Assembly: GCA_006218035.1 (NCBI GenBank)
Contig: VBWC01000010.1
Location: 203,572 to 267,571, forward strand
Length of the DNA: 64,000 nt
From: Gammaproteobacteria bacterium
GTDB taxonomy: Bacteria > Pseudomonadota > Gammaproteobacteria > VBWC01
Direction of reading: 5' to 3'
The notes beneath the pieces were generated by a model. That model did no database searches. It saw only the letters and a list, made by a program, of their open reading frames with translations, and had not been told where the DNA came from. The translations under genes were made by a program, and so were the position numbers. This document shows, piece after piece, positions 18,416 through 63,987 of the stretch; positions within the stretch are counted from its first letter, which is position 1, and the number at the start of each line of letters is the position of its first letter.

Positions 18416-18418
18416 CGT

Positions 18419-35560: not shown

Positions 35561-35945
35561 GACGTCTAGAAATCAATAAGATTAGGTCACAAAGATCGAA
35601 CCAAGATAACAACCCGCCATAAAATCAAAAGGTTATCAAATTTGGCGTCCACAAGGAAGGAAATCTATCGTGATGGCGGCATGCACTATCGCATTTTTTG
35701 AAAAAATGTACCCGTGAATATTTACCCGGATTAATATTCTACCCGCCTTAAAGAAAGAAATAGTCATGACCGATACTGTCAGGCAGGCCAGCGATACCGG
35801 GTTGCTTCTTCGGGTACAGTCGACTACCCTACCCGCGGCGAACAATGTATTCGGAAATATTCGCGTTGCCCAGCGCAATTTCGCAGCTTAGTTGGTTTCG
35901 ATTTCACCCGTTGCTTGGTTACAACAGGGAATACCTCTAGGACTC

Positions 35946-37605: not shown

Positions 37606-37967
37606 ATCTCTTCAGGACTGACACCAAGAATACTGCAATTGGATTCCATAATCCCCGATCCTGACATACCGCGTTCATCGCACCAGCACCAAATCAGTCA
37701 CATGGCGGGTTATACAGTAACTTTCCGGCGCGACAATAGTATGTTTCGACCTTCGCCGCAACCAGCCCGTTCTTATCCGCATTGCAGCAGTGTTTCGCGT
37801 TACGGGGCGACGCTCGCGCCAAGATATCCGCTCACAGCCACGTTATTACAGATTTTGTGACCGCCTTCACATCGGATTGGTGACCCGCCGCCCGGGGAAT
37901 CGCCAGGCGCGGTCCGATGTTATCCGTACAGCAAGTTGAATTACCTATCCGCAGGCGAGGACGTCAA

Positions 37968-49193: not shown

Positions 49194-50912
49194 TTATTGA
49201 TCTCCTAATGCGGTCCTGGAGAACGCGCTCGCGTCGCCATCCAGTATTTCGTGCATTCGACGAATAATGTATACGCGGAATGCCAACAGATAAGGGTCCA
49301 ATAACAAACCCTGATTCCTGATAGAAAGCATCGATCTAATCCGGCGAATAATTCTCTCCCCTTTGTTGCTCGATAGCTTCCCTGACAAGGAGGATTCTTT
49401 CGCCAACAACTCGAGAGCGAACCGACTCAGGACGTCGATACGCTTACTCCCGGCATGCTCCTGACGCAGGCCATTGCGAATGGCAGACGCGACTGTGTCG
49501 CTGCGTAGAATATCGTCTCGCGATTCGATCGCAGCACCTGTCGCGTATCGTATACCCGGACCATTATGCGTGACCATGTGTTTAAACGCGCTCTTATTCG
49601 TCCGCAAACTGTCCGGCATACATCGTACCTGTGTAATGATTTTCCTGGACAGCAGAGGTGCGCTGATTTCGACATAAGAAAGCTTAAGATCGCTGAGCGC
49701 CGCAAATACAAAAGGAAACTCGAATAACGTATTTGCTCTGTCCCGCCATGTTTCGCGACTTTCATCCGGTTGCCTTTCGATATTATGTGGCCATACCTGA
49801 ACGCCCGCCCCGAATTCCTTTTGAAGCATCCCGACATTTTCGAAATCGGATAGCACCTGCATGCCCATGTTTTTGTAGACCTGCCGATCACTTCGTATAG
49901 CGCGACATCCGAAAGCCTCATCACCACGGATAATACCTTGATAACCCCTCTCATATAGAGCTTTCCAAATCGCGAATCCGTCCATATATCCGGAGATGTG
50001 GTCAATTCTCCCTTCGCCAGCGACGAGAAATCGCGTAAAGAGATATTCCACATTCTCATCGGACAAGTCCGTATAGAAGTACTGATGAGGAACGCGATAA
50101 TGACTAGCCAGATCCCTCGCCACACATGCATCGCCGTTCTCATCTGACAGCGCCGCCTTGACGCCCCATGTGACTGTCTTCAGACCAGGCCTGTCCTTCA
50201 ACATCTGGAGTATCGCCCGGCTATCGTAACCGCCAGACAATGGCAGCACCCATCGATCAAAATCCAGATCCAGCCCATCAAAAGTATCCTGGATTGAGTC
50301 TCTGAGACGTTTCTCATGCTCATTCTGCGAACTGCTATCCGCACGGAAAGCAACCGGCGCTCTGTCGAGCTTGAGCTCCCAGCTCTCCCTATCCAGGATG
50401 AGGCGCGCATCCCCTGGAAGACACCGTATTCTTTTGTCCCAGGATAGCTCGGGCCCCAAGGTACCGGACGACAGCATCCAGGGGTAGGCAGTCTCATTTG
50501 GTTGGTAGCTTTGCAGAAAATAAACGATGGCCCGCTGCGAGGTAGCGGCGATAAACAAGTCGTCAGTCTTTACATACCAGATCGTACGCGACGCAAGGAT
50601 ATCCGTCAGAAGCTCGACCGTCTTCTCAGCCCCCCTAAACAACGCGTAGCTGCCATCCGGCGCGTCCGATTCCGGCCGCCACCAGTCGGGGCTGTGACCA
50701 AACAATGTCCCCATGCAAACACTGCATCCCTGGATCCTTAAAGAGTCTGTCGGATTAATAATCCCAAGCAGGATGCCGTCACCTTCAATAACCCTGGGCG
50801 GTACCGGCTTAATATTATCCGGCGTCAACCGCGCCGATAGCGCCGTGATGTGGCGGCCGCCAAACTTGACCGGCGCCCCAATTCGGGTCGTGACAAAAAC
50901 CGCTTTCGACAT
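49194..50912 (-). CDS. Asparagine-synthetase-B-like amidotransferase paralogue without the N-terminal Cys nucleophile.
   Basis: PP-loop LPLSGGYDSRAILQML. The N-terminus is MSKAV... rather than MCG.... Confidence 0.7.
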   Translation of the reverse strand: MSKAVFVTTRIGAPVKFGGRHITALSARLTPDNIKPVPPRVIEGDGILLGIINPTDSLRIQGCSVCMGTLFGHSPDWWRPESDAPDGSYALFRGAEKTVELLTDILASRTIWYVKTDDLFIAATSQRAIVYFLQSYQPNETAYPWMLSSGTLGPELSWDKRIRCLPGDARLILDRESWELKLDRAPVAFRADSSSQNEHEKRLRDSIQDTFDGLDLDFDRWVLPLSGGYDSRAILQMLKDRPGLKTVTWGVKAALSDENGDACVARDLASHYRVPHQYFYTDLSDENVEYLFTRFLVAGEGRIDHISGYMDGFAIWKALYERGYQGIIRGDEAFGCRAIRSDRQVYKNMGMQVLSDFENVGMLQKEFGAGVQVWPHNIERQPDESRETWRDRANTLFEFPFVFAALSDLKLSYVEISAPLLSRKIITQVRCMPDSLRTNKSAFKHMVTHNGPGIRYATGAAIESRDDILRSDTVASAIRNGLRQEHAGSKRIDVLSRFALELLAKESSLSGKLSSNKGERIIRRIRSMLSIRNQGLLLDPYLLAFRVYIIRRMHEILDGDASAFSRTALGDQ

Positions 50913-50988
50913 AAAACTCCCACACGCTCCGATTCCCCCTCGGCATCAAAGGTATCGACAACCGCGAGGTATTCTTAAACATCGACGG

Positions 50989-52755
50989 CTAGGTCTTGAG
51001 GGACTTCGCTGTTTTGTCTACGACCAGAGCACCTGCATCTTCACACAACATGCGATCCATCTCGCAAATTATGTACGCCCGAAACGCCAGCTTGTATAAA
51101 TCCAGCTCGATACTCGACGACGGGCGCCAAAAGCCGGCTACAACGGGCCTTACCGCATCGATAGCCTTTTTGGGCAGAATATTCTTGAGGATCGCCTTCA
51201 AATTCGTATTGGCAGGCCTATAGGGGGAGGCGAGTTGACCATCGCCGAAAATATGATTTTTCAACAGCTGAATTAAATCGGGGGGAAACAGCTTCTCGGC
51301 GCGCGCGCTGAGTAATGTCCCCATGATATGGTCGATCACTCTTGTATCTTTCAAGATATTTGACGACATTTCTATTGCTGGATATTCCGCAAACGGAATG
51401 TCCCTGTTTGCAGCGACAACGATTTTCTTGAACAACATTCTGTCTGTCCGGAGACGATCCGGCATCTTTCGAACGGCGCGAACTATCCTCCTGGACAAGA
51501 GCGGGTTAACAATTTCGACGTAGGAGTTTTTCAAATCATTCAGCGCTGCCATCACGACGGGTATGCGGTAACTTTGATATAAACGATCTCGCCATGCCTC
51601 TAACGACTCCATGTCCCGTCTATCAAATATCGTGGGAAGGTGCTGTTCAAACTGCTCATGCAACGGAACCTTTCCAAGGTTCCGATAATCGCTCAAAAGT
51701 AACAACTCAACGGAACGCCTTACGTCGATCGGATTTGCTACCGGTATCCAGCCGAATACTGAATCTCCGCGGATTACGCCGTAATTACCAGACTCAAAAA
51801 GATGCTTCCATATCGAAAACCCATCCATGTATCCCGATATGTGATCCACGCGACCTTCGCCGGCAACAAGAAATCGCTTGAATATTTCATTCACCGGCTC
51901 ATCAGATAAATCCGTTTCCAAATACTCATGAGGCATCCCGTACTTCTGTGCGAGATCGCGCGCGACGCAGGCATCGCTTTTCTTGTTCGCGAGCGCGGAC
52001 CGCAGGCCCCATGTGATTGCTTTCAGCCCTGACCGACCCCTCAGCATCTGCAGGATCGCGCGGCTGTCGTAACCGCCCGACAACGGCAATATCCACTTAT
52101 CTAAATCCAGATCGAGATGATCGAATGTCTCGCTTATCGCTTTCCGCAGGTTTCTTTCGTGACCTCTATCAGGAAGATTCTCAGCAAAGAAGTTAACCGG
52201 CTCGGCTGATAACTTTGCTGTCCAGGTAATTCGATCGAACATCAGGCGCGCGTCCGGCGGCACGCTTTGAATTCTCTTGTCCCACGACAATCCGGGGCCG
52301 AGAGTTCCCGACGACAACATCCATGTATAAGCGCTGGTGTTCGGCTCGTAGCTTTGAAGAAAATAAACGATGGCGCGTTGCGACGTGGAGGCGATAAACA
52401 GTTCATCCGTTTTCGCATACCAGATCGTCCGAGACGCAACGGTATCGCTCACCAGTTCTACTTGGTATTCGCCACTTCGAAACAACGCGTAGTTACCGTC
52501 TGGCGCATCGGCTCCGGGCATCCACCAATCATCATCTGCGCCGAAGAATGTTCCCAGACATACGCTGCTATTGTTTATTGGTAACGACGCGACCGGATTT
52601 ATGACACAGATCGCGATACCGTGCCCCTCTACCACTAGAGGCTGACGAGCGGTGATATTACCGGGGGTCAGTCGCTTCGATATTTCTTTGATCGCTTGCC
52701 CCATCCGAGGCATTTGATCCGCCGATCGAGAGCATAAAAGTACCAGTTTAGACAT
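50989..52755 (-). CDS. Second AsnB-like amidotransferase paralogue, also without an N-terminal Cys. It is a tandem duplicate of 49194..50912.
   Basis: PP-loop ILPLSGGYDSRAILQML. Strong colinearity with the neighbouring paralogue, for example LFRSGEYQVELVSDTVASRTIWYAKTDELFIASTSQRAIVYFLQSY. Confidence 0.7.
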   Translation of the reverse strand: MSKLVLLCSRSADQMPRMGQAIKEISKRLTPGNITARQPLVVEGHGIAICVINPVASLPINNSSVCLGTFFGADDDWWMPGADAPDGNYALFRSGEYQVELVSDTVASRTIWYAKTDELFIASTSQRAIVYFLQSYEPNTSAYTWMLSSGTLGPGLSWDKRIQSVPPDARLMFDRITWTAKLSAEPVNFFAENLPDRGHERNLRKAISETFDHLDLDLDKWILPLSGGYDSRAILQMLRGRSGLKAITWGLRSALANKKSDACVARDLAQKYGMPHEYLETDLSDEPVNEIFKRFLVAGEGRVDHISGYMDGFSIWKHLFESGNYGVIRGDSVFGWIPVANPIDVRRSVELLLLSDYRNLGKVPLHEQFEQHLPTIFDRRDMESLEAWRDRLYQSYRIPVVMAALNDLKNSYVEIVNPLLSRRIVRAVRKMPDRLRTDRMLFKKIVVAANRDIPFAEYPAIEMSSNILKDTRVIDHIMGTLLSARAEKLFPPDLIQLLKNHIFGDGQLASPYRPANTNLKAILKNILPKKAIDAVRPVVAGFWRPSSSIELDLYKLAFRAYIICEMDRMLCEDAGALVVDKTAKSLKT

Positions 52756-52805
52756 TACGTAACATCGAACACCTGATAATTATCGTTGAATTGCTCCATC
52801 GCCTT

Positions 52806-54737
52806 TTAAGTAATCATTTCGCCTTCGTCTTTGATCCACTTCTGATACCACATCTGAAACACCAGAATCGTCCACACGATGTTGTATTCGGAACCGTCCT
52901 TGAGATATCTGTTCTTCAGGTAAGTCACATATTCCACGTCAAAAAAGCCGTGCTCTCTCAGTCGCGGTTCTTCAAGATGATACAAAAGCAGTTTTGACAA
53001 ATCGCCACGAAGCCATTTGTAAACAGGGACGCCAAACCCCTTCTTGGGCCTGTCCATCATCGCCGAGGGGACGTGCCTATGTACGATTTTCTTTAAAATC
53101 TTTTTCCGGTTCCCGCGACCATACTTATACGATAAAGGTAACCGCGCCGCGAACTCGATGATCCTGTGATCCAGAAGTGGTTCGCGGCCTTCCAGGCTCA
53201 CCGACATCGTGGCCCGATCAACCTTGGTCAATACGTCATCTACCATGTAGTTCTGATAGTCGATCGCCAGACTCTTGGTGATATCATCGATACCGCCGCT
53301 TAATTTGGTGGCGTTATTAAAGAACGCGTTTTTCGTATCTACCGTTGTATTGAGTAATCGATAGATCCGGTAATCCGTGCATCTCCCTTGTAGAAAGATA
53401 TCGATTAACTGATCGACAGAGCAGCGCGATCTGAGCTTCCAGAATTGGTTTAATAGAATCTGAACGTGCTTGTTGTAACCACGGTACGATTTGGAGACGT
53501 TCGATAAATAACCTGTGGATGCGTTAAATGATCGCCTTAGCCAGGGCGGATACCTGCGTATCTTATGGTAGTCGTCAACATATTCTTCTGTATGGTCATA
53601 TCCGACGAAGGTCTCATCTCCGCCATCAGCGGATAATGCCACCGTTACGTTCTCTCTCGCCATACGACTAACAAGCATCGTTGGAATGGCAGAGGTATCG
53701 ATAAACGGCTCATCATAGTAATACGGCAGCGTCGACACGATCTCTTTTGCGTCCGCCTCGGAACAGTAATATTCGGTATGATCAGTACCGAGATAGGCGG
53801 CGATGGCCTTCGCCTCGTTTGCCTCGTTGTGGCGCTTGTCGTCAAATCCAATCGTAAAGGTCTTCAGCCGGTCGGTCATGTCAGTCTGCAACAACGCAGT
53901 CACCGCAGTGCTGTCATAACCACCGCTCAGGAAAACGCCTACCGGAACGTCTGCGACCATGCGATACCGAAAGGCCGATACCAGCAACTTTTCCATTTCA
54001 TCAACCGCGTCGGGCTCCGAAATATCGAGCAGCGGCATATTGTAATAATCGATAACATCCCAGTATTTTTCTTCTTTTAGGTCCCGGGAATTCAAATCGA
54101 TCGTTAAGTAATGGCCCGGCTTGAGCTTGTAGGTATTCTTGAAGATCGTGTACGGAGCAGGCACGTATCCGAACCTGAAAAACAACGGCAACGCGTCAGC
54201 GTCGATTTCTTTTTTAAAAGCCGCGGTTTGATGAAAGGCCTTGAGCTCCGAAGCGAACAGAAATAAACCGTCTTTATAACTGTAATATAGCGGCTTTACG
54301 CCCGCCCGGTCCCTGAAAAGATACAGCTTCTCTTTTTTTTTGTCGTAGATGATGAATGCGAACATGCCGATCAGCTTATGTACCGCGTCGACCCCCCATC
54401 TTATATAAGCCTTCAACAACACCTCAGTGTCGGAGGAAGTGAAAAACGTAAAGCCCTCCTTTTTAAGCTCTTCCCGTATTTCAACGTAGTTATATATTTC
54501 GCCATTAAACGCGATTACGTGGTCGCCGCTCTCATCCTTCAACGGCTGCGCAGCACCGGCGGACAAATCGATAATCGACAATCTCCGGTGCCCCAGACCG
54601 ATATGTGCGTTGTCCACTGGGTAGAACTCGTAACCGGAACCGTCAGGCCCGCGATGCCATAAAACATCGGTCATGCGCCTTAGCTCGTCACGAGTCAGGC
54701 GCTTTCGGAAATCACAGAAACCGGCTATACCGCACAC
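52806..54737 (-). CDS. Asparagine synthetase B-type glutamine-hydrolysing amidotransferase. It is probably an amidotransferase for a sugar or uronic acid, given the context.
   Basis: Canonical MCGIAGF N-terminal nucleophile (class II GATase) and the SGGYDS PP-loop. Confidence 0.85.
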   Translation of the reverse strand: MCGIAGFCDFRKRLTRDELRRMTDVLWHRGPDGSGYEFYPVDNAHIGLGHRRLSIIDLSAGAAQPLKDESGDHVIAFNGEIYNYVEIREELKKEGFTFFTSSDTEVLLKAYIRWGVDAVHKLIGMFAFIIYDKKKEKLYLFRDRAGVKPLYYSYKDGLFLFASELKAFHQTAAFKKEIDADALPLFFRFGYVPAPYTIFKNTYKLKPGHYLTIDLNSRDLKEEKYWDVIDYYNMPLLDISEPDAVDEMEKLLVSAFRYRMVADVPVGVFLSGGYDSTAVTALLQTDMTDRLKTFTIGFDDKRHNEANEAKAIAAYLGTDHTEYYCSEADAKEIVSTLPYYYDEPFIDTSAIPTMLVSRMARENVTVALSADGGDETFVGYDHTEEYVDDYHKIRRYPPWLRRSFNASTGYLSNVSKSYRGYNKHVQILLNQFWKLRSRCSVDQLIDIFLQGRCTDYRIYRLLNTTVDTKNAFFNNATKLSGGIDDITKSLAIDYQNYMVDDVLTKVDRATMSVSLEGREPLLDHRIIEFAARLPLSYKYGRGNRKKILKKIVHRHVPSAMMDRPKKGFGVPVYKWLRGDLSKLLLYHLEEPRLREHGFFDVEYVTYLKNRYLKDGSEYNIVWTILVFQMWYQKWIKDEGEMIT

Positions 54738-54857: not shown

Positions 54858-56078
54858 CTACTTACGCCTCAGGCATTCGATGGCATCCCGGTAGACATCC
54901 ACATATTGACGAGCCACGTTTACCCAATCGTATTGTGATGCCACTATCCGCGCTGCCGTGGCCATGTCGCTCCGAACATCACGACGCGCAAACACTTTTA
55001 AGACCGCATCGGCCAACTCCGCCTCATTCGATGGCGCGACCAGGTACCCGTTCTTACCGTCGCTGACAACATCCTTGTTTCCGGAAATATTAGTGGCCAC
55101 GACGGGGATCCCTGCTCCCATCGCTTCAAGTACCGCCAGTGACAGCCCTTCGGAATTGTCATCGGTACCCGCGGATACATAAAGTTCGCTGCTGCATAAC
55201 AATTCGGCAAGATAATCCGGCTCAGCTTGCTGAAGCGATGTTTTTGTTACGCGATTTAGAATATTTTGCGACGGGTTAATTCCCCCGGTAAGAATAACCT
55301 TGCCTTCCATGCCGGCCTCCTTAATCAGGGGCCTCAACACTTCTGTCTTCTCACCAACAATCACCAATCTTGCATGCTGGTCTTGCGCGAGTATTCGTGG
55401 CATCGCCCGAACCAGGTATTCCTGCCCTTTGCGCGGATTATAACGTCCTATCGTCACTATCAGCCGCGCGTCCGGTTCGACTCCGAGCCACTCACGCACA
55501 TTCAGCGTGGCTGCTTGACCGAATCGTTTTAAATCCACGCCGTTCGGCACCAGCCGGATTTTATCAGCGGCGGCTCCTGCCTCGATTAATACATCTCTTA
55601 TCTTCGTACTGATCGCGGTAATACGTTCTGCGGTTTTCAACGCCAGAACAATTTTCTGTCGGAGGCCCGGATCGAGCATGAGGCCGTAGCCGATCTCCGG
55701 AATCGTCTGTATGTCCTCCCCGTGCGGCGTAATGACCAGCGGAATACTCCTGGTTCGTTTTAAACGCGCTGCGGTGTACCCGGTCGGATAGGTGTTGTGC
55801 GCGTGAACGACATCACAGGACCAAAGCGCAGCATCCAGCGCCAGATGCGCCATTGCTACCTGCTCAGGGAACATGCCCCTGAGCGTTGGCCATCGATGGA
55901 CCGGGTAGTTAAACCGCAGCTGGCGGTGCTTCCAGAACCCCGCGGGCCCGACAACCCTGACCTTGTGTCCCAGCGTTAATAATGCATCCGCCAGATAGTG
56001 GATGACGAACTCCCTTCCTCCCAGGGCCGGGAGAAAACTATTCACATATAAAACAATATTGAGTTGACTGCCGTTCAT
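54858..56078 (-). CDS. GT4-family glycosyltransferase.
   Basis: GLSLAVLEAMGAGIPVVATNISGNKDVV. Confidence 0.8.
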   Translation of the reverse strand: MNGSQLNIVLYVNSFLPALGGREFVIHYLADALLTLGHKVRVVGPAGFWKHRQLRFNYPVHRWPTLRGMFPEQVAMAHLALDAALWSCDVVHAHNTYPTGYTAARLKRTRSIPLVITPHGEDIQTIPEIGYGLMLDPGLRQKIVLALKTAERITAISTKIRDVLIEAGAAADKIRLVPNGVDLKRFGQAATLNVREWLGVEPDARLIVTIGRYNPRKGQEYLVRAMPRILAQDQHARLVIVGEKTEVLRPLIKEAGMEGKVILTGGINPSQNILNRVTKTSLQQAEPDYLAELLCSSELYVSAGTDDNSEGLSLAVLEAMGAGIPVVATNISGNKDVVSDGKNGYLVAPSNEAELADAVLKVFARRDVRSDMATAARIVASQYDWVNVARQYVDVYRDAIECLRRK

Positions 56079-56124
56079 CGATACGTCCTTTCACGCCGCG
56101 TTCCATAGTGACACGTGAACAAAA

Positions 56125-57207
56125 CTAAATTAACCTGCCATATAGCGTCGTAACCTGATCCGCAACCCGCTCCCAACTGAGCGCAAGCGCACGTTCGCGG
56201 GCAGCACGCCCCATATCCATTCGTCGAGAATCGTTACCGTACAGGTAATTTATTCCATCAACAAACGAAGAGACGTCCCCTCGTTTCGTCAGAACAGCCG
56301 CGGACTCGTCCACGTAATCGCGTATCCCGACAATGTCGGTCATTATGGTCGGCAGTCCGCACGCCATCGCCTCAAGCAGCGCATTATTAGTAGTTGCATC
56401 CGTTACCGGCATGACAAACAGCTGGGACGATTGATACAACGCCAATAGTTCCTTGTCACTTACCCCATTCAAAAGCGTCACATTATCGAGCCCGGAGAAA
56501 CGACCATACTCGGATGGAGACGTTACCACGACAAACTCTATTTCCTTGCCGCGCAAGATCCTGGCCGCCGCAGTTAAAACGTCAAAATCCCTGAGATGCG
56601 ACCCCACAAACAGGCAGCGAAACTTGTTGCTCTTGGCGGGGGTCGTGGGTGGCTGGAAGTATTGAACGTCGACTCCATGTGGAATATAGTGAATCCGGTC
56701 CTGGCCTACGAGATCTGAAAATATATCCCGCTGCACCGTGGATACTACGACTACCGCGTCCAGTCGTCTGATCGGCCTGGTGTCATAAACGATTCTACGA
56801 AACTTTTCCTGAGGCAAATGGTACGTGCAAACTATCGGCTTCGGTTTGCCAAACTTCTTTAACCGGCCGAGATAGCAATATGAATTCTCCCCGTAGAGAA
56901 AATGAAACACCTGTCCCGCATCTCGCCACCATCGTGCGCCAGCCGCCAACTCACAGATCAAATTACCCCGCTGGTACCACTGCGACCCGGCCTTCCTGAT
57001 AAGTGGCTTTAAGACTTTTGCTACCGCCCGTTGACTGAAAGACCAGTTGACTGGTGGTCTAATGACGTTACAAGGAAGGTAGTCAACCAGCCGGTCATAG
57101 CCGGACGGTCCTGCATGACCGCTCATCCGCATCGAGATTACAACCGCCGAGGGTTCAGCGCGTTGTTGCCTGGCGGGCAATTCATCGCCACTCCGTTCGA
57201 AAGTCAT
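56125..57207 (-). CDS. GT4-family glycosyltransferase.
   Basis: NNALLEAMACGLPTIMTDIVGIRDYV. Confidence 0.75.
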   Translation of the reverse strand: MTFERSGDELPARQQRAEPSAVVISMRMSGHAGPSGYDRLVDYLPCNVIRPPVNWSFSQRAVAKVLKPLIRKAGSQWYQRGNLICELAAGARWWRDAGQVFHFLYGENSYCYLGRLKKFGKPKPIVCTYHLPQEKFRRIVYDTRPIRRLDAVVVVSTVQRDIFSDLVGQDRIHYIPHGVDVQYFQPPTTPAKSNKFRCLFVGSHLRDFDVLTAAARILRGKEIEFVVVTSPSEYGRFSGLDNVTLLNGVSDKELLALYQSSQLFVMPVTDATTNNALLEAMACGLPTIMTDIVGIRDYVDESAAVLTKRGDVSSFVDGINYLYGNDSRRMDMGRAARERALALSWERVADQVTTLYGRLI

Positions 57208-57350: not shown

Positions 57351-60300
57351 TTACGAGACCAGCCTGGAAACGAGCCCGCTATGCACATGCGGTTTAATCT
57401 TCCTCCAGTTTTTGTGGTACCAGTCGACTATCAGCTCCCTGACCATCGCAATCGACCCCTGGGTTATTGAGCTACAAACCGGCGCCACATCCTCCAACAG
57501 AAACGGCAGCTCCAGAATCTGCGAGTACTGAAAATATTGATCCGGATTTTTTTCAATATCCTCCACGGCCTCCTCCAGCGTGCGCGCAATGGACTCACGG
57601 TCGCTGCCTGGCCCTTCCGTGACCATGGCGAGATAAACGACGCCGGACCACAACATCCTGGTACCGCCTTGCAATCTATGTATTAGGCCGATGAAGACCT
57701 GATCGTTTCTGGCAAGAATTTCGTTGACGCGATCAACATATATCTGCGGATCAATGCCAGCGCTGACGAGCCACTTCACCGTGAACGACAGAATAAACGG
57801 CAAATCTTCCAGATCTCCACGATCATGCTGAAGAAATACACCCTGCGCGGCCCCTGTCTCCTTCAGGTTGCGTCGCCGCCATAGCCAACGCCCCATGACG
57901 ATATTTTTTGCCACCTTGAAACACGCGAACACCCGGACGATTTCGTCCTCCAGCTCAGCAAATACAGGCTGAAGCACATCCTTCCTGAATGCGGCAAATG
58001 CGTGAGGATTATCCTGCACCTGAATCAACGCCACGAGAATATCCCGAAAATCGGGATTTTCCACAACACCGGCCCGCAAGAACGCTACCGCTGAATTTAC
58101 ATTGTCGCTTAATAGCTGCGCTGACGCGGCATTCGAATCAGCGTTGCTCCGGCCATACAATGTCATCAATTCATCAACGACCCGCGAATCAAGAAACCGG
58201 CGGTCAAGTTTCGAAATAGCACGAAATCGCGTAATTGCTTCCGCCTCTTCTCGCTCTCCCGCCGCGGTCAGATACCCGCCAATCGCATGATACAGACAGA
58301 GCTTGTTCAGCAAATCGGCGCCCGTTTCCGAAAGCGCAACCGATCCGCCAACAAGAGCCTTTGCCAGCGTCCCAACATCGATCAAATGCTCGACCAGTCT
58401 GGGATCCTCTGCCTGCTTTTTCATTAAGACATTGAAGTCGTTGTCATGCAGCGCAGGATATGTCCCATTGACGATACGCAGCCCTCTCTTGTTACGCCGA
58501 ATGGACAACTTCTCTTTTATGTTATAGGCAAAGACCAAACCGAAATCTGAATTTGCGCTGACATCGGGACTTTTCTCAACGAATGTCGTCGGGTCAGCGA
58601 CCAATGCCTTGGGCCCTCCTTCAATAAACGCCTCGTAGCGCTTCGATCCGGAGAACAATCGATACAGATTTGGCAAATGCCGGACCTCTTCAATCGGCAT
58701 GACAACGGCCGTGTTGGTCATCGCATTGTCGATAACAACATGGTTTCGAAGACCGATTATCTCGATCGGCAGGTCATCCGAAATCACCAGATTATCGGCA
58801 CAGGAAAGCAGCTTCACCTTTTCCGGCTGACCCAGACAAACATTTCCATCGCCGCGATCGAATCTGTCGTGTCCCTGATAAAACCGCTTTACGCTTGTTC
58901 CCGGGACACCAAAATCCTCGAAGCGTGCTTCAGGATCGAGAATCGACGTCGCCAGCCTGACTTGACCATCGTCGTCCCGTTTCCATGGCGCGGCGCGGGA
59001 AAGAAGATTCTCAGCGAGATTTCCGGATTGCGGCTTGCCAGGCACCAACTTTCGATAGTAGAACTCGTTGAATACAATCGCACCGCATTCCCACGCGAGG
59101 CTCCCAGGCGCATTTCTGACTTCTTCAAAGTCTTCCTGACCGGGCTTTTCAATAAACCGGGGTACCTCATAGGACCGATAGGAGTGTAATTTTCTGGTAT
59201 ATAAGTGGTGCCCGAATCGAATATCGATAATCGCGTTCTTGTCCGCGGGTTTCCCTATGCTGACTATGCAACTGTTCTCGCGCGCGGTAATCAAGGCGCA
59301 GGCTACTGCATCCTGAAATCGCGCATAGGGGGCGATCACATTATCGCCCATGGAGATAATCACCATGCGATTTTGCTGATCACCGTCGATGGGCAGACCA
59401 TCCAGCGCAAGGCCCACCGCCGGGATAGTTCCCTTGGGTTCCTTTTCAATAACGCAGTTCTCTATCGGAACCCCTTCTTGCCCCGCCTGATCGGACACTT
59501 TATCCAGCGCGTTTGCACTGCACAAAATAAATATACGATCCGGCCTGATGAAGTAATCGTAGGTGAATCGTCGAATGGTCTCCTGCAATAACGAACGGTC
59601 GCCAAGCAAGGAATAGGACACCGGCTTCGGACGGTTTTCGCAGGAGATAGGCCAAACCCTCGACCCGATCCCGCCGGCCAGTATCGCCACATAGGTATCG
59701 TTCAGAATTGACGACAGGTAGTATTTACTCAGACCACGCAAACAGAACATGTTGGTCCAGTAGCTTTGCGTGTCGGCCTCCAGCTTGCCCTGAAATTCCC
59801 TCTCGTAGAAACCATACTGAAAATAGCCATCGCCGCCCTTTTTCATCTCGAGCAGCTTGGCCGCCAACCGGTCCATCACCGGCTGCCAGGCAGAATCGAG
59901 TCGCCCCATCTGCATCAGATCGGCGGCAAGGGCCAGAACCTGGGAAAGCGCATCGGTTCTGAAACGTGCCAGCGGTACGTCTTCTGACGAGTCGATGACC
60001 TGGGGAATCTCACCCTCTTTACAGTGCCCCAGAGCCCACTCGGTCGCTCGCCTGGCCGACTCGATAAGAACGTCGTTATTGGTCTTGCGTCCCACATGCA
60101 ACAGGCCTTCGGTAGCGTAGCAATGGGGATGCAATTCGGTTCGACCGCTGGATGTCTCGAAGTTGCCCCGTAGCGACTGGAACTGCAGCACGTTCCGACA
60201 GATGGATTCGGCTGCGGAGAAGTATTTCTCCTGATTCGTGGCTTCGTACAGATCGATAAGTGCTTCGGCGACTTTGGAATGAAATGCGCCAAAGCGCCTC

Positions 60301-60845
60301 GACCACTTGGCCTGCTCGGCGGGTACCGGTTCACCCATGGCGGCATCATAGATGGCATCGACCTCGCCTTTCGGGCTGATGACCCGCTCTACCAGGTAAT
60401 CGCCCATGCGAATGGCAGAGCGTAGTACCGGTTCGTCACCGGCAAACCGGTAGAGCGCCACCATGCCACGCAAACAGATCGCGACATCAAAGGAGAATAT
60501 CCGTCGCCCGGCAAACGACTTGTCGGCTAGATCCGGCTCGCCATCCCGCTCAAAATAGTATCGGGTCAGCACGCCACCGGAGGGGTCCTGGGCGTGGCTC
60601 ATGATCCACTCGGCGCTTTTTTTTGCCTTGGCGAGATATCGCCGGTTGCCCGTCAGCGACAGCAATGTCAAGTCATCGAGAATTGCATACCCGGTGACCT
60701 CGGTAAAAAGAAACCTCGGCGTGCCGTCTTCACGGCCCGGCTCGACAACCGCCCCGGTGTCCGGATCGAAAAAGACACCCAGATTTTTCTCATAGTCCCC
60801 AAGAACGCTCTTATAGAAGTTCTTAATTGTCATTTCGCTACCCAT
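57351..60845 (-). CDS. 1164-aa three-module protein: an N-terminal AGE-like (alpha/alpha)6 six-hairpin domain, a central sugar-1-phosphate nucleotidyltransferase (mannose-1-P guanylyltransferase-like) domain, and a C-terminal helical domain of unknown function of about 330 aa.
   Basis: The nucleotidyltransferase signature is YVAILAGGIGSRVWPISCENRPKPVSYSLLGDRSLLQETIRR. The N-terminal roughly 380 aa has AGE/YihS-like composition. No recognisable motif was found in the C-terminal third. Confidence 0.6.
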   Translation of the reverse strand: MGSEMTIKNFYKSVLGDYEKNLGVFFDPDTGAVVEPGREDGTPRFLFTEVTGYAILDDLTLLSLTGNRRYLAKAKKSAEWIMSHAQDPSGGVLTRYYFERDGEPDLADKSFAGRRIFSFDVAICLRGMVALYRFAGDEPVLRSAIRMGDYLVERVISPKGEVDAIYDAAMGEPVPAEQAKWSRRFGAFHSKVAEALIDLYEATNQEKYFSAAESICRNVLQFQSLRGNFETSSGRTELHPHCYATEGLLHVGRKTNNDVLIESARRATEWALGHCKEGEIPQVIDSSEDVPLARFRTDALSQVLALAADLMQMGRLDSAWQPVMDRLAAKLLEMKKGGDGYFQYGFYEREFQGKLEADTQSYWTNMFCLRGLSKYYLSSILNDTYVAILAGGIGSRVWPISCENRPKPVSYSLLGDRSLLQETIRRFTYDYFIRPDRIFILCSANALDKVSDQAGQEGVPIENCVIEKEPKGTIPAVGLALDGLPIDGDQQNRMVIISMGDNVIAPYARFQDAVACALITARENSCIVSIGKPADKNAIIDIRFGHHLYTRKLHSYRSYEVPRFIEKPGQEDFEEVRNAPGSLAWECGAIVFNEFYYRKLVPGKPQSGNLAENLLSRAAPWKRDDDGQVRLATSILDPEARFEDFGVPGTSVKRFYQGHDRFDRGDGNVCLGQPEKVKLLSCADNLVISDDLPIEIIGLRNHVVIDNAMTNTAVVMPIEEVRHLPNLYRLFSGSKRYEAFIEGGPKALVADPTTFVEKSPDVSANSDFGLVFAYNIKEKLSIRRNKRGLRIVNGTYPALHDNDFNVLMKKQAEDPRLVEHLIDVGTLAKALVGGSVALSETGADLLNKLCLYHAIGGYLTAAGEREEAEAITRFRAISKLDRRFLDSRVVDELMTLYGRSNADSNAASAQLLSDNVNSAVAFLRAGVVENPDFRDILVALIQVQDNPHAFAAFRKDVLQPVFAELEDEIVRVFACFKVAKNIVMGRWLWRRRNLKETGAAQGVFLQHDRGDLEDLPFILSFTVKWLVSAGIDPQIYVDRVNEILARNDQVFIGLIHRLQGGTRMLWSGVVYLAMVTEGPGSDRESIARTLEEAVEDIEKNPDQYFQYSQILELPFLLEDVAPVCSSITQGSIAMVRELIVDWYHKNWRKIKPHVHSGLVSRLVS

Positions 60846-60892: not shown

Positions 60893-62017
60893 TTAAAGTT
60901 TGTGAGCTTGAATCGTGCTGTTAACGATTCTTGAACCGGCCTTTCCGTCACCATACGGGTTGTGAGCGAAACTCATCGCTTTATAAGCCTGGTCATCGTC
61001 CAGCAATCGCTCTGCCTCCGTCACCATCAGTTTCTCGTCGGTACCGACGAGACGCACCGTACCCGCCTGAACCGCTTCGGGCCGCTCCGTGGTGTCTCTC
61101 ATCACCAGCACCGGCTTCCCCAACGACGGCGCCTCTTCCTGGATACCTCCCGAATCGGTCAGTATCAGGTATGACCGGGTCATCAGATAAACAAATGGAA
61201 GATAATCCAGAGGGCTTATCAAATAAACATTACCGGTGCTACCCAGTATTCGATTGACCGGCTCCTGCACGTTGGGATTCAAGTGTACCGGGTAGACAAT
61301 CTGCACATCATTGCGCGCGGCCAGGGTAGCAAGCGCCCGGCATATGCGCTCGAAACCACCGCCGAAACTTTCGCGCCGATGACCCGTCACAAGAATCAGG
61401 CGCTTGCTCGGGTCAAGAAACGGGAAAAGCCCTGACATCTCCCGGTTAAGTCCGTCGTTGCTCTCAAGATAACCCGCCACTTCCAGCAGTGCATCTATGA
61501 CGGTATTTCCGGTGACATGAATCGACGATTCCGGAACACCCTCGCGCAACAGATTGTCCCGCGCCCAACTGGTAGGGGCGAAATGAAGGTCCGCAATTCC
61601 GGATGTCAGCTTGCGATTGATCTCCTCTGGCCACGGAGAATAAATATTCCACGTCCGAAGCCCTGCCTCGACGTGGCCGACCGGAACTTTGTGATAATAC
61701 GCCGCCAGAGTAGCAGCGAGCGTCGTCGTCGTGTCGCCATGCACCAGTATTCTGTCAGGCTTCAACGCCGAGATCACGTCCTGCATACCTTCCAGTACGG
61801 CACAATTGATCGCTGTAAGATCCTGCCCCTTCTTCATGATATTCAGATCGTAATCGGGCGTTATCTTGAACAAACGCAGTACGGAATCGAGCATCTCACG
61901 ATGCTGGGCAGTGATACAAACGGAAGTGCTTATGCGTCCGTCGGCCCGCAAGGCCTTAATGACGGGGGCCATCTTGATCGCTTCTGGCCGCGTACCAAAA
62001 ACGGTTAACAATTTCAT
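60893..62017 (-). CDS. wecB: UDP-N-acetylglucosamine 2-epimerase, non-hydrolysing.
   Basis: [19 protein letters not shown]..., HVEAGLRT, and colinearity with WecB/MnaA over the whole length. Confidence 0.9.
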
Positions 62018-62065: not shown

Positions 62066-63223
62066 TCAGGCCAGAATATCGCCGAGCTGTCTTATCGTTT
62101 TGCGATTCCACGCCGAGGCATATTCATAAGCGCCTCTCGCAAGGCGTGACGCGTGATCACTATCGCTGAGACATTTTATTATATGTTCTGAAAAATCACC
62201 CGGGCTGTCAGCCAGAAGAAAGGCGCTGCCCGCCCCGTCCTCCAGTCCTTCTGCTCCGGTAGGCGAAGTCACGAGGGGTTTCGAATACCCCAGGGCCTCG
62301 AGATTCTTGATACTCAGCCCGGTATTAAACCGCACCGGATTTATTACCACCGCAGCGGCCTCATATACGGGCACAAGATCATCAACTCGCCCCAGCTTCA
62401 CAACCCCGGGCTGGTCATTCACGGCCTTGCAGACGCTTCCAGCCAGCGCGAGCTCGGCTCCCGGAACTTCGTTTCTGATCGCCGGAAACGCGTCAGCAAT
62501 AAACTGATTGATGCCATCGCTGTTAATCGGATTGTCTGAAGCGACAAACAGTATCTGTTTTCCTGCGTCTCGTTTTAACGCTTCGCGCAGCGCAACAATG
62601 TGTCCGATCGTGATCACTTTTCTGGACGTCAAACCTGAGAAAAAATCGCGCTCCAGATCCTGGATGGCGATGACCACGTCGGCCCTGTCGAGCGCCTTCG
62701 CTTCCTCTTGACGAGTCGTCGAATACCACTGTGGCACCTGACCGTTTTTGAGATATTTGAGATGGCGGTCGGTAAATACGTCGTGCGTATCGACGATCTT
62801 AAGCACATCATTGCCAAACAGCTCGAGGATTCGGGAAAAGAAAACATATTCGACGATAACCACATCGAATCGGAACCTCTCATTGAGATCGGTTATAGCG
62901 CCGTCAATCGACGGGTCATACCATTCATCAATGGAATAGACGTACCTGGCATCCGGCTTAAAAATTGACTGGATTTTTCTTTTCCAGCGCGCGCCCGGGC
63001 TGTGCGGACGATGATACGGTACCGAAAAAAATCGATCGCCCCATACTTTTCTCATCGCTTCTTCGTCACCCGGCTCACTTTGAACGTGACAGAAATACAC
63101 GTCGTGCCCGAGTTGCTGAAGGCCGGACAACAAACCATCAATTCTTGTTCTGTTACCAGCCGTTTGTGGATGGGTGGGCGTGGGAGAAACAAGCAGAATC
63201 TTTTTCATCGACATGATATCCAA
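62066..63223 (-). CDS. Glycosyltransferase, GT-B/GT4-like.
   Basis: C-terminal ...INPVRFNTGLSIKNLEALGYSKPLVTSPTGAEG resembles the GT4 donor-binding region. Confidence 0.55.
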   Translation of the reverse strand: MDIMSMKKILLVSPTPTHPQTAGNRTRIDGLLSGLQQLGHDVYFCHVQSEPGDEEAMRKVWGDRFFSVPYHRPHSPGARWKRKIQSIFKPDARYVYSIDEWYDPSIDGAITDLNERFRFDVVIVEYVFFSRILELFGNDVLKIVDTHDVFTDRHLKYLKNGQVPQWYSTTRQEEAKALDRADVVIAIQDLERDFFSGLTSRKVITIGHIVALREALKRDAGKQILFVASDNPINSDGINQFIADAFPAIRNEVPGAELALAGSVCKAVNDQPGVVKLGRVDDLVPVYEAAAVVINPVRFNTGLSIKNLEALGYSKPLVTSPTGAEGLEDGAGSAFLLADSPGDFSEHIIKCLSDSDHASRLARGAYEYASAWNRKTIRQLGDILA

Positions 63224-63279: not shown

Positions 63280-63987
63280 TTATCGTTTATCGGCAACATC
63301 GCCGACGCCGTGATCCGCATCGCCTCTGTAGCGGATCACGCGAGCCGGAATACCGACTGCAATCGCGTTGTCCGGAATTTTCCCGGTTACCACAGACCCC
63401 GCCCCGATAACGGCGCCATTACCGATTTCAACACCATCCAGCACTATCACACCATATCCAAGCCAGACGTCATCGCCAACGGATATGCCTCCCGCCGTAT
63501 ATATAGGTTGCTCGCGAATGGAACGGCGCGAATCCACGGCGTGATTGTACGGATAAAACGCACAACCAGGCGCAATTTCTACACGCTTGCCGATCCGCAG
63601 ACACCCCTTGTAGGCGGAAATCTGGCAGCGTGGCTGAACATGGGTATCGTCGCCGATAATCACGCTACCGCCGACCCCGGTTTGAATCACGCTCTCGCGA
63701 TGCAAATGCACCCCGTTGCCGAGAGTCACCGGGCCGCCATCGTCATCCTGATAAATCAGAACACGCTCACCAATAAAACAATGTTGTCCCAATACCAGTC
63801 CGGCATGATGAATGGTTGCTCCGGGCGCAGTAAATCCGCGTTCGTCCAGATTCGCAAGCGCGATCTGCCCGTAAAATGGCGGGACGAGCCAGGTTGCCAG
63901 GAAAGCCGCGATACGCCCGCCGGGGCGAGCGTGCGATCGTTTCACCCAGAAACGCGTCCATACCTTCCGGAAACGATAAAAACGCAT
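63280..63987 (-). CDS. Left-handed beta-helix (hexapeptide-repeat) acyl/acetyltransferase, likely a sugar O- or N-acetyltransferase.
   Basis: Hexapeptide repeats: VGDDVWLGYGVIVLDGVEIGNGAVIGAGSVVTGKIPDNAIAVGIPAR. Confidence 0.75.
   Translation of the reverse strand: MRFYRFRKVWTRFWVKRSHARPGGRIAAFLATWLVPPFYGQIALANLDERGFTAPGATIHHAGLVLGQHCFIGERVLIYQDDDGGPVTLGNGVHLHRESVIQTGVGGSVIIGDDTHVQPRCQISAYKGCLRIGKRVEIAPGCAFYPYNHAVDSRRSIREQPIYTAGGISVGDDVWLGYGVIVLDGVEIGNGAVIGAGSVVTGKIPDNAIAVGIPARVIRYRGDADHGVGDVADKR

What the first reader, a model, noticed from the sequence alone, without database searches (positions are those of the whole stretch)
57351..60845. 1164-aa fusion of an AGE-like six-hairpin domain, an NDP-sugar pyrophosphorylase and an unknown C-terminal domain
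The central region has the unmistakable sugar-1-P nucleotidyltransferase P-loop (ILAGGIGSRVWPISCENRPKPVSYSLLGDRSLLQETIRRF), with flanking beta-helix-like sequence as in mannose-1-P guanylyltransferases. The N-terminal roughly 380 aa looks like an N-acylglucosamine 2-epimerase/YihS-type (alpha/alpha)6 isomerase. The last roughly 330 aa is helical with no motif I recognise. An aldose-ketose or 2-epimerase fused to an activating pyrophosphorylase in one chain, located next to wecB, suggests a channelled route to an unusual NDP-hexose. I am not aware of this three-domain architecture being described.
Basis: partly seen in the sequence, partly recalled or inferred. Interest (0 to 1): 0.7.

Follow-up and report, generated by a model that had tools for sequence, protein, structure and literature searches.

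The report
Three-domain sugar-nucleotide enzyme partnered with WecB
This is a real, rare three-domain enzyme of uncultured bacteria, and its uncharacterised first domain belongs to a protein family that almost always sits beside, or is fused to, the sugar-activating enzyme WecB, which suggests an undescribed step in making cell-surface sugars.

Summary
The ORF is real: 57351-60845 on the minus strand, 1164 aa, with Met5 the probable start. It is not an assembly artefact, because at least 59 protein clusters from independent metagenomes share the architecture.

- **Centre (aa 385-793):** an intact ManC-type sugar-1-phosphate nucleotidyltransferase with its beta-helix.
- **C-terminus (aa 794-1164):** In this lineage the metal-binding Asp is lost (HA instead of HD).

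The main new result concerns the six-hairpin family. It is a dedicated partner of WecB-type 2-epimerases. WecB is adjacent in 25 of 27 standalone loci across bacteria and archaea. The two are fused in one chain in at least 9 representatives. The family is also fused to NDP-sugar N-formyl- and N-acyltransferases.

Most likely the protein, WecB and a GT4 transferase form a cassette that makes and installs a manno-type HexNAc sugar. The exact reaction of the N-domain is unresolved. Some homologs carry TIR or nucleoside-phosphorylase heads, which I cannot explain.

The parts
57351..60845 (-). Whole ORF, 1164 aa plus stop codon. The probable true start is Met5, at 60833.
59694..60833 (-). N-terminal (alpha/alpha)6 six-hairpin domain, aa 5-384. 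It belongs to a new family with AGE-like fold.
60105..60131 (-). Family signature HPHCYATEG (aa 239-247) at the start of inner helix 8. H239, H241, Y243 and E246 are invariant in fused and standalone members.
58467..59693 (-). ManC-type sugar-1-phosphate nucleotidyltransferase with its C-terminal beta-helix, aa 385-793.
   Evidence: PF00483 at E 2e-13. TIGR01479 partial match. Family profile against T. maritima GMP 2x5s gives E 4e-27 over chain residues 4-310 of 336.
59649..59681 (-). Nucleotide-binding loop LAGGIGSRVWP (aa 389-399). G391, G392, G394, R396, W398 and P399 are invariant.
59142..59150 (-). EKP motif (aa 566-568) of the sugar-phosphate site, invariant across the family. K407, D501 and D644 are also conserved.
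57354..58466 (-). C-terminal HD-superfamily fold plus a helical extension, aa 794-1164. The domain is optional: homologs of about 800 aa lack it.
58284..58289 (-). Degenerate HD dyad: H853-A854. Among 40 full C-domains, position 854 is D in 20, A in 18 and V in 2.
60893..62017 (-). wecB, the non-hydrolysing UDP-GlcNAc 2-epimerase, directly upstream. It is the conserved partner of the six-hairpin family.
   Evidence: TIGR00236 at 519 bits against a cut-off of 210. 67% identity to E. coli WecB. Adjacency statistics.
62066..63223 (-). 385-aa GT4 glycosyltransferase. An ortholog lies next to the fusion gene in 9 of 13 fused-type loci with adequate flanks.
   Evidence: No solved relative.
63280..63987 (-). 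Hexapeptide-repeat acyltransferase at the head of the cassette. It is also present in L007, L008 and L009.
54858..57207 (-). Two further GT4 glycosyltransferases directly downstream (56125-57207 and 54858-56078). They continue into the polysaccharide cluster.

Best explanation
The gene encodes a cytoplasmic, multi-functional enzyme of nucleotide-sugar biosynthesis. It works as a cassette with the adjacent WecB (UDP-GlcNAc 2-epimerase), a 385-aa GT4 glycosyltransferase and a hexapeptide acyltransferase. In this genome the cassette sits at the edge of a large exopolysaccharide cluster.

Shown:
1. The centre is an intact ManC-type sugar-1-phosphate nucleotidyltransferase.
2. The N-domain is an AGE-like (alpha/alpha)6 barrel. 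It belongs to a distinct small family whose members are nearly always adjacent to, or fused with, WecB-type epimerases and other NDP-sugar tailoring enzymes.
3. The tail is an HD-fold domain that has lost the Asp of its HD dyad in this lineage.

Inferred:
- The six-hairpin domain is catalytic. Its invariant residues are H239, H241, Y243, E246, D120, K191, R95, R296 and D298.
- It carries out a proton-transfer (epimerase/isomerase-type) step on a HexNAc-type sugar in the same pathway as WecB. The most plausible substrate is an NDP-keto-sugar made by the SDR that accompanies the standalone family, the role that cupin epimerases play in the CapE/F/G and FnlA/B/C routes.
- The transferase domain activates a hexose-1-phosphate, probably with GTP.
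- The GT4 installs the product.
- The HD tail was originally a phosphohydrolase, perhaps removing PPi or NDP. In this protein it is probably only structural or regulatory.
For: Domain assignments:
- Centre.
- N-domain.
- C-domain.

Architecture: conserved in 59 clusters and in more divergent representatives.

Active-site conservation: the transferase motifs and 20 or more invariant polar residues in the N-domain are retained, including in standalone members.

Gene neighbourhood:
- Fused form: WecB in 7 of 13 loci and the GT4 in 9 of 13.
- Standalone form: SDR in 27 of 27 loci, WecB in 25 of 27, GT4 in 19 of 27 and N-acetyltransferase in 12 of 27. The genes share a strand and the typical order is S-X-N-W-G.

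Domain fusions of the six-hairpin:
- Epimerase_2: P0117, P0138, P0149, P0163, P0175, P0184, P0189, P0080, P0073.
- NTP-transferase + methyltransferase + Epimerase_2: P0077.
- Formyl-transferase: P0067, P0101.
- Hexapeptide acyltransferase: P0091, P0139.

Partner enzymes: they resemble UDP-HexNAc pathway enzymes, namely Pal/UXS and WlbB/QdtC.

Cellular location: no signal peptide and no hydrophobic segment at the N-terminus (sequence).
Against: - No residue-level structural superposition was possible. The equivalence of H239/E246 with the AGE His-x-x-Glu is inferred from helix register only.
- The AGE Arg (helix 2) and the second His (helix 12) are not conserved.
- Fused-type loci rarely have the SDR nearby (1 of 13), so the keto-sugar substrate proposed for standalone members may not apply here.
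- The WecB partner is 67% identical to E. coli WecB, which is UDP-specific, while the transferase is ManC-like and presumably GTP-specific. The two may therefore feed different donors rather than one pathway.
- TIR and PNP heads on some homologs are not explained by a purely biosynthetic role.
- All carriers are uncultured, so there are no experimental data.
Confidence: 0.45

Rival explanations
1. The six-hairpin domain acts directly on WecB's product or bound intermediate by non-AGE chemistry. Three versions are possible. It could hydrolyse UDP-ManNAc. It could hydrate released 2-acetamidoglucal, as GH88/GH105 six-hairpins hydrate enol ethers. Or it could N-deacetylate UDP-HexNAc, so that the associated formyl- or acyl-transferases can re-acylate the amine, as in the LpxC/LpxD logic. 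Any of these would pull WecB's unfavourable equilibrium.
For: - Fusion to Epimerase_2 is the most frequent alternative architecture, and WecB is adjacent in 25 of 27 standalone loci.
- N-formyl- and N-acyl-transferase fusions and neighbours occur without any conserved aminotransferase.
- An H-x-H plus Asp/Glu constellation could bind a metal.
Against: - No six-hairpin deacetylase or NDP-sugar hydrolase is known to me.
- Free ManNAc would be a dead end in these clusters: there is no NeuB or kinase, and a GT4 follows.
- The Cys of HPHC is not conserved.
- The nearest folds by two methods are the proton-transfer epimerases, not hydrolases.
Confidence: 0.2
2. The N-domain is an aldose-ketose isomerase or 2-epimerase acting on a free or 6-phosphorylated hexose, a non-cupin analogue of the PMI domain of bifunctional PMI-GMP enzymes. 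It supplies a manno-sugar that housekeeping kinase and mutase enzymes convert to the 1-phosphate used by the fused ManC domain.
For: - The nearest folds include mannose isomerase, glucose 2-epimerase and YihS.
- The ManC-type domain lacks the usual cupin PMI partner.
- Invariant Arg and Lys residues could bind a phosphate.
- The N-domain plus transferase core is the conserved unit, since homologs of about 800 aa lack the HD tail.
Against: - Most family members are standalone and have no nucleotidyltransferase, kinase or mutase nearby. Instead they are embedded among NDP-sugar tailoring enzymes and fused to WecB.
- The AGE catalytic Arg and second His are not conserved.
Confidence: 0.15
3. The three-domain core is a sensor or regulator of nucleotide-sugar or nucleotide pools rather than a pathway enzyme. 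In some lineages it controls TIR or PNP effector heads as part of a conflict or stress system.
For: - TIR heads are present on P0033, P0064, P0066 and P0068, and PNP_UDP_1 heads on P0029 and P0031.
- These heads match defence-effector models in PADLOC.
- All members with such heads keep the intact HD dyad.
Against: - The core has no PADLOC hit.
- The family is absent from viral contigs.
- The window protein has no head and lies in a polysaccharide operon.
- The TIR-headed P0033 still has WecB directly upstream.
- The transferase active site is fully conserved.
Confidence: 0.08
4. The N-domain is a conventional glycoside hydrolase or polysaccharide lyase that trims the polymer made by the cluster, like BcsZ, PslG or AlgL in other exopolysaccharide operons.
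For: - Pfam clan-level hits to GH127 (30.5 bits, above the cut-off of 24.9), GH76, GH88 and pectate lyase.
- Databases call standalone members GH88 or GH76.
- A polysaccharide lyase (5noa) is among the Foldseek hits.
Against: - There is no signal peptide, and the domain is fused to cytoplasmic nucleotide-sugar enzymes.
- The Pfam matches cover only generic hairpin repeats and are register-shifted.
- Its partners are NDP-sugar enzymes rather than export machinery.
- The cassette occurs outside polysaccharide clusters.
Confidence: 0.07
5. The long ORF is an artefact: two or three genes joined by a sequencing or assembly error.
For: None was found. One MAG copy (L014) has an in-frame stop in the N-domain.
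Against: The same continuous architecture appears in 59 clusters from independent assemblies, down to 34% identity, and in a 98%-identical MAG (L008). The domain junctions are conserved.
Confidence: 0.01

Closest known systems
Bifunctional type II PMI-GMP enzymes (ManC/AlgA/WbpW; NCBIfam TIGR01479)
   Same: Both have a ManC-type GGxGxR(L/V)WP nucleotidyltransferase with a beta-helix, fused in one chain to a second sugar-converting domain.
   Different: In those enzymes the second domain is a C-terminal cupin isomerase. Here it is an N-terminal six-hairpin, there is no cupin, and an HD-fold tail is added. The score of 78.5 bits is far below the equivalog cut-off of 373.
AGE superfamily (Pfam PF07221): N-acylglucosamine 2-epimerase, cellobiose 2-epimerase, glucose 2-epimerase, mannose isomerase, YihS
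   Different: Sequence identity is 10-14%. The domain scores below the Pfam threshold, shows no profile-profile similarity to YihS, and does not conserve the helix-2 Arg or helix-12 His. AGE enzymes act on free reducing sugars, whereas this family lives among NDP-sugar enzymes.
UDP-L-FucNAc / L-RhaNAc type routes (CapE-CapF-CapG, FnlA-FnlB-FnlC); cited from my own knowledge, not tested here
   Same: Both have a gene trio of an SDR acting at C4/C6 of UDP-HexNAc, an epimerase acting on the keto-intermediate, and a WecB-like 2-epimerase. This resembles the S-N-W order of the standalone loci.
   Different: The middle epimerase in the known routes is a cupin (or part of the SDR), not a six-hairpin. 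No separate reductase is conserved here.
HD-domain phosphohydrolases, and the HD-like C-terminal domain of PPX/GppA
   Different: The window protein has HA instead of HD. Pfam PF01966 is never reached (13.6-16.5 bits against a cut-off of 22). A further helical extension of about 170 aa is of unknown nature.
GNE (UDP-GlcNAc 2-epimerase/ManNAc kinase) as a precedent for fusing Epimerase_2 to the next pathway enzyme; from my own knowledge
   Same: An Epimerase_2 domain is fused in one chain to a downstream sugar-processing domain, as in P0117 and P0138.
   Different: The partner there is a ROK-family kinase, not a six-hairpin.

Membership tests
AGE superfamily (PF07221) | (alpha/alpha)6 barrel closest in structure to AGE/CE/YihS enzymes | tested here: met
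AGE superfamily (PF07221) | Sequence match to the family model above Pfam's gathering score | tested here: not met
   PF07221 scores 16.5 bits against a cut-off of 23.4 in the window protein, and 11-18 bits in homologs. The family profile hits no AGE chain in the PDB at E<=10. hhalign against E. coli YihS gives 25% probability with a shifted register.
AGE superfamily (PF07221) | Conserved active site: Arg on helix 2, His-x-x-Glu on helix 8, His/Trp on helix 12 (PMC6333288) | tested here: inconclusive
   The helix-8 region has invariant H239, H241 and E246, but with different spacing. No invariant Arg lies on helix 2 (E49 and T51 instead). Helix 12 starts with W363, preceded by Y362, which is S or A in standalone members; there is no His. 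No structural superposition was available, so these equivalences rest on helix register.
ManC-type sugar-1-phosphate nucleotidyltransferase (PF00483) | Pfam NTP_transferase above the gathering score | tested here: met
   50.8 bits against a cut-off of 21.2, over aa 388-617.
ManC-type sugar-1-phosphate nucleotidyltransferase (PF00483) | Catalytic motifs: GGxGxR(L/V)WP loop, Lys, Mg-binding Asp residues, EKP | tested here: met
   G391, G392, G394, R396, W398, P399, K407, D501, E566, K567, P568 and D644 are invariant or nearly so across 58-59 homologs.
ManC-type sugar-1-phosphate nucleotidyltransferase (PF00483) | C-terminal beta-helix as in T. maritima GMP (2x5s) | tested here: met
   The family profile aligns to 2x5s residues 4-310 of 336 at E 4e-27.
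Mannose-1-phosphate guanylyltransferase proper (TIGR01479 / NF012004 equivalogs) | Score above the curated equivalog cut-off, and a PMI cupin domain for type II enzymes | tested here: not met
   78.5 bits against 373, and 52.5 bits against 859. Only the N-terminal 200 profile positions match, and there is no cupin. Substrate specificity therefore remains open.
ManC-type sugar-1-phosphate nucleotidyltransferase (PF00483) | Formation of an NDP-sugar from a sugar-1-phosphate and an NTP | not testable with these tools
   This needs an enzyme assay.
HD-domain phosphohydrolase superfamily (PF01966) | HD-superfamily helical fold | tested here: met
HD-domain phosphohydrolase superfamily (PF01966) | Metal-binding H...HD...D residues | tested here: not met
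   The window protein has H820, H853-A854, D886 and D935, so the Asp of the dyad is missing. Among 40 full C-domains, position 854 is D in 20, A in 18 and V in 2.
HD-domain phosphohydrolase superfamily (PF01966) | Pfam HD model above the gathering score | tested here: not met
   There is no hit in the window protein. HD-intact homologs score 13.6-16.5 bits against a cut-off of 22.
Glycoside hydrolase families of the six-hairpin clan (GH127, GH76, GH88) | Family model match over the catalytic domain | tested here: inconclusive
   GH127 PF07944 scores 30.5 bits against a cut-off of 24.9, but covers only aa 65-222 against profile positions 74-210 of 376. The GH76 matches are register-shifted hairpin repeats.
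Glycoside hydrolase families of the six-hairpin clan (GH127, GH76, GH88) | Family catalytic residues (GH127 Zn-bound Cys nucleophile; GH76 Asp-Asp) | tested here: inconclusive
   The Cys of HPHC is replaced by L, S, M, T, F, G or A in many members, which argues against a GH127-type Cys. No Asp-Asp pair is invariant. No superposition was possible.
Known anti-phage defence systems (PADLOC-DB 2.0) | Match of the protein or its cassette partners to a defence-system model | tested here: not met
   There are no hits for the window protein, its GT4 or its WecB. Only the TIR and PNP heads of P0033, P0031 and P0066 match effector models.

The most novel reading that the evidence does not exclude
The six-hairpin domain founds a new class of nucleotide-sugar tailoring enzyme: an AGE-fold catalyst that works on an NDP-linked HexNAc. 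The substrate would be a keto-intermediate, the WecB glycal intermediate, or the N-acetyl group. It would be an obligate partner of WecB-type 2-epimerases across bacteria and DPANN archaea. In some lineages the whole three-domain core has been coupled to TIR or PNP effector heads, linking surface-sugar metabolism to NAD or nucleotide-degrading responses.
Probability: 0.3. Interest if true: 0.8.

Novelty: new variant of a known kind. Interest (0 to 1): 0.6.

Why it matters
All three folds are known, but two things appear to be undescribed: the architecture itself, and the six-hairpin family's tight partnership with WecB-type epimerases.

- **Lack of annotation.** Pfam and NCBIfam have no model for the family. 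Databases label members inconsistently as GH88, GH76, YyaL, YesR, terpene cyclase or hypothetical.
- **Possible new step.** If the domain is catalytic on a nucleotide-sugar, it adds a new fold to the short list of NDP-sugar tailoring enzymes (SDRs, cupins, PLP enzymes, Nudix-like dehydratases). It would also predict an unknown step in HexNAc/ManNAc-type glycan biosynthesis. That step would be widespread in uncultured groundwater and sediment bacteria and in DPANN archaea.
- **Testability.** The conserved cassette of acyltransferase, GT4, WecB and fusion protein is small enough to express heterologously, so the question can be tested directly.
- **Open question.** The TIR and PNP-headed variants raise a separate question about links between glycan metabolism and NAD or nucleotide-degrading effectors.

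Tried and rejected
1. **Plus-strand reading.** The given coordinates on the plus strand give only stops. The gene is on the minus strand.
2. **Sequence-level AGE membership.** Three tests all failed: the Pfam threshold, hhalign against E. coli YihS and the family profile against PDB sequences. Only the fold is AGE-like.
3. **Zn site.** I considered a Cys/His Zn site like those of GH127, LanC and prenyltransferases, formed by HPHC plus C216 and C124. I rejected it as a family feature because the Cys of HPHC and C124 vary in the wider family.
4. **Nonulosonic-acid clusters.** The dehydratase + NeuD-like + Epimerase_2 order suggested sialic or legionaminic-type clusters. I rejected this because there is no NeuB, the epimerases are WecB-type rather than NeuC-type, and a GT4 follows.
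5. **Conserved aminotransferase or UDP-ManNAc dehydrogenase.** I probed all loci with E. coli WecE and WecC. They occur in only a few loci and are never adjacent.
6. **Defence system.** PADLOC gave nothing for the core, and the family is absent from viral contigs.
7. **AFDB Foldseek.** This library was unavailable.
8. **Literature.** Four searches found nothing on this architecture or on a six-hairpin partner of WecB.
9. **PF25840.** This accession appears in precomputed hit lists for standalone members, but my Pfam scan did not return it, so I could not identify it.
10. **Residue-level superposition.** Superposing the model on AGE structures was not possible because model coordinates are not exposed.

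Full report
**Observation.** The coordinates 57351-60845 hold one uninterrupted ORF of 1164 codons, on the minus strand. The plus-strand reading is full of stops. Nearly all homologs align from query residue 5, so the second ATG (60833) is probably the true start. The upstream sequence does not decide between the two ATGs. GC content is uniform across the gene and its neighbours, and promoter- and terminator-like sites do not exceed chance. Short gaps separate the gene from wecB upstream (47 nt) and from a GT4 gene downstream (143 nt), which fits one operon.

**The fusion is not an artefact.** A search of 5.8 billion proteins found 59 clusters with the same architecture, from independent assemblies and down to 34% identity. 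A scan of 185,579 species genomes found a 98%-identical copy in Gammaproteobacteria MAG nzgw581 (L008). It also found full-length copies in MAGs of Chromatiales, Competibacteraceae, Pseudomonadales, Hyphomicrobiaceae, Verrucomicrobiota, Acidobacteria and Clostridia. Every carrier is uncultured. Homologs of about 800 aa keep residues 1 to about 793 and lack the tail. The six-hairpin plus transferase is therefore the core, and the C-domain is optional.

**Central domain (aa 385-793).**
- Pfam NTP_transferase matches at E 2e-13.
- NCBIfam GMP_PMI matches only over its first 200 positions, at 78.5 bits against a cut-off of 373.
- A family profile aligns to essentially all of *T. maritima* mannose-1-P guanylyltransferase 2x5s, including its beta-helix, at E 4e-27.
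- The GGxGxRxWP loop, K407, D501, the EKP motif and D644 are invariant.

This is an intact ManC-type nucleotidyltransferase. It is not an ortholog of ManC, and it has no cupin PMI domain. Its sugar and nucleotide specificity remain open.

**N-terminal domain (aa 5-384).** The AlphaFold model built on 46 sequences is very confident (pLDDT 94.6) and shows twelve helices in an alpha/alpha barrel.
- *Sequence:* the picture is different. PF07221 scores 16.5 bits against a cut-off of 23.4. hhalign against E. coli YihS gives 25% probability with a shifted register. The family profile hits no AGE chain in the PDB at E<=10; it gives only register-shifted hairpin-repeat matches to GH76 and GH127.
- *Active site:* the AGE active site uses an Arg on helix 2, a His-x-x-Glu on helix 8 and a His/Trp on helix 12 (PMC6333288). 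This domain has E49/T51, H239-P-H241-x-Y243-x-x-E246 and W363 at the corresponding helix starts. It has no conserved His near the C-terminus. These equivalences come from helix register, not from a superposition.

**The six-hairpin is an autonomous family tied to WecB.**
- *Family size:* an exhaustive HMMER scan of 1.84 billion representatives found only 532 relatives (284 at E<=1e-10). Most are standalone proteins of 370-410 aa.
- *Standalone members:* these occur in DPANN archaea, Scalindua, Chloroflexi and Omnitrophota. They keep the signature residues.
- *Fetched loci:* across 24 fused and 52 standalone loci, I located partner genes by tblastn.
- *Standalone neighbours:* among the 27 standalone loci with at least 2.5 kb on both sides, an extended SDR is present in 27, a WecB-type epimerase in 25, a GT4 in 19 and a NeuD-like N-acetyltransferase in 12. 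The genes share a strand, typically in the order SDR, acyltransferase, six-hairpin, WecB, GT4.
- *Fused neighbours:* among 13 fused-type loci, WecB is adjacent in 7 and an ortholog of the 385-aa GT4 in 9. Several of these loci are not polysaccharide clusters at all.
- *Epimerase type:* the epimerases score as true non-hydrolysing WecB (365-519 bits on TIGR00236), not NeuC. The window's copy is 67% identical to E. coli WecB.
- *Domain fusions:* the six-hairpin is fused to Epimerase_2 in P0117, P0138, P0149, P0163, P0175, P0184, P0189, P0080 and P0073. In the 2211-aa P0077 it is fused to NTP-transferase, methyltransferase and Epimerase_2. It is also fused to sugar N-formyltransferase (P0067, P0101) and to hexapeptide acyltransferase (P0091, P0139).
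- *Partner chemistry:* the SDR partner is closest to Pal and UDP-glucuronate decarboxylases and carries TSSSEIYG...YxxSK. The acyltransferase is closest to WlbB and QdtC-type NDP-amino-sugar N-acetyltransferases.
- *What is absent:* aminotransferases, WecC and NeuB are not conserved partners.

**How it most likely works.** The location is cytoplasmic, since there is no signal peptide. Together with the partners, this places the protein in nucleotide-sugar biosynthesis.

*Shown:* an intact pyrophosphorylase; a conserved and probably catalytic six-hairpin pocket; obligate association of that fold with WecB and NDP-sugar tailoring enzymes; and a degenerate HD tail.

*Inferred:*
- The six-hairpin performs a proton-transfer (epimerase/isomerase-type) step on a HexNAc-type sugar of the WecB pathway.
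- For standalone members the best candidate substrate is an NDP-keto-sugar made by the ever-present SDR. That is the role cupin epimerases play in the CapE/F/G and FnlA/B/C routes (my own knowledge).
- The transferase activates a hexose-1-phosphate.
- The GT4 installs the product into the exopolysaccharide made by the surrounding cluster, which includes a polyprenyl-phosphate sugar transferase, a polymerase-like membrane protein, several GTs and three AsnB-like genes.

*Main weaknesses:* SDRs are rarely near the fused form (1 of 13 loci). WecB (UDP-specific) and a ManC-like domain (GTP-specific) may serve different donors. No superposition or assay was possible.

**Rivals.**
1. The domain acts directly on UDP-ManNAc or on the 2-acetamidoglucal intermediate, as a hydrolase, hydratase or N-deacetylase. 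This would explain the formyl- and acyl-transferase partners that lack an aminotransferase.
3. The core is a sensor or regulator. At least four representatives carry TIR heads and two carry PNP_UDP_1 heads that match defence-effector models. However, the core has no PADLOC hit, the family is absent from viral contigs, and the TIR-headed P0033 still sits next to WecB.
4. The domain is a polymer-trimming glycosidase or lyase. The cytoplasmic fusions and the partner genes argue against this.
5. The ORF is an artefact. This is refuted.

**Novelty.** No Pfam or NCBIfam model covers the six-hairpin family or the tail. Database names are fold-level guesses. Four literature searches found nothing on the architecture or on a six-hairpin partner of WecB. 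The folds are known and the biology is ordinary in kind (surface-glycan biosynthesis). I therefore rate it a new variant of a known kind. There is a realistic chance (about 0.3) that the N-domain represents a new class of nucleotide-sugar tailoring enzyme.

Noticed in passing
homologs P0033, P0064, P0066, P0068 (TIR); P0029, P0031 (PNP_UDP_1); P0062, P0121 (unknown 220-470 aa heads): Some members of the three-domain family carry N-terminal TIR or nucleoside-phosphorylase heads that match defence-effector models in PADLOC. Two others share an unassigned head with a Lon-protease-like 'SGGSAGGAF' motif. All of them keep the intact HD dyad. The window protein has no such head.
   Followed up: partly
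window 49194-54737 (-): Three tandem asparagine-synthase-like genes. The 643-aa one is a normal glutamine-hydrolysing AsnB and is similar to the XrtA/PEP-CTERM amidotransferase. The 588-aa and 572-aa paralogs lack the N-terminal Cys nucleophile, have no Pfam hit at E<=1e-5, and only weakly resemble macrolactam cyclases.
   Followed up: partly
window 7399-10422 (-): A 1007-aa ORF that by eye joins two lipoyl domains and an E2 acyltransferase core (DHRVVNGA) to a full dihydrolipoamide dehydrogenase (GGGPGG...CIPSK). It looks like an E2-E3 fusion and lies next to E1 beta and E1 alpha genes (10868-12852).
   Followed up: no
window 14839-21182 (+): A second, separate sugar-modification cluster. By eye, and from a tblastn hit with E. 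coli WecE, it contains an ATP-grasp protein, two DegT-like aminotransferases, a TauD-like dioxygenase, a GT4 and a small polyprenyl-phosphate sugar transferase.
   Followed up: no
window 35892-36617 (+) and 37917-40355 (+): Two predicted secreted proteins end in the same C-terminal module of about 90 aa (LSWNP...VY(F/Y)G...CF(R/K)(L/I)RA(R/Y)NA.G.SG(F/W)S.PVC). The larger one also has tandem 'TPDTGT(A/I)TTPSSGGTVEV' repeats.
   Followed up: no
L014 (SYFY01000187.1) 8001-9134: The N-domain of this MAG's copy contains one in-frame stop codon. It is either a pseudogene or a sequencing error.
   Followed up: no
L005 13516-15207; L006 6274-8768 and 12745-13638: In the more distant clade of the fusion family (P0044, P0050) the neighbours are large SAM methyltransferases, one fused to a GT2, rather than WecB and GT4. 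The 2211-aa P0077 also includes a methyltransferase domain. This hints at methylated sugars in those lineages.
   Followed up: partly
L007 8036-8791 and 13503-15530: In a hydrothermal-vent contig the GT4-WecB-fusion cassette is flanked by three sulfotransferase genes and a formylglycine-generating-enzyme-like gene. This suggests a sulfated glycan product there.
   Followed up: no
standalone homologs P0201-P0211 and others: Many standalone six-hairpin proteins carry a precomputed hit to Pfam PF25840. My own Pfam scan of the same proteins did not return it, so I could not identify this accession.
   Followed up: partly
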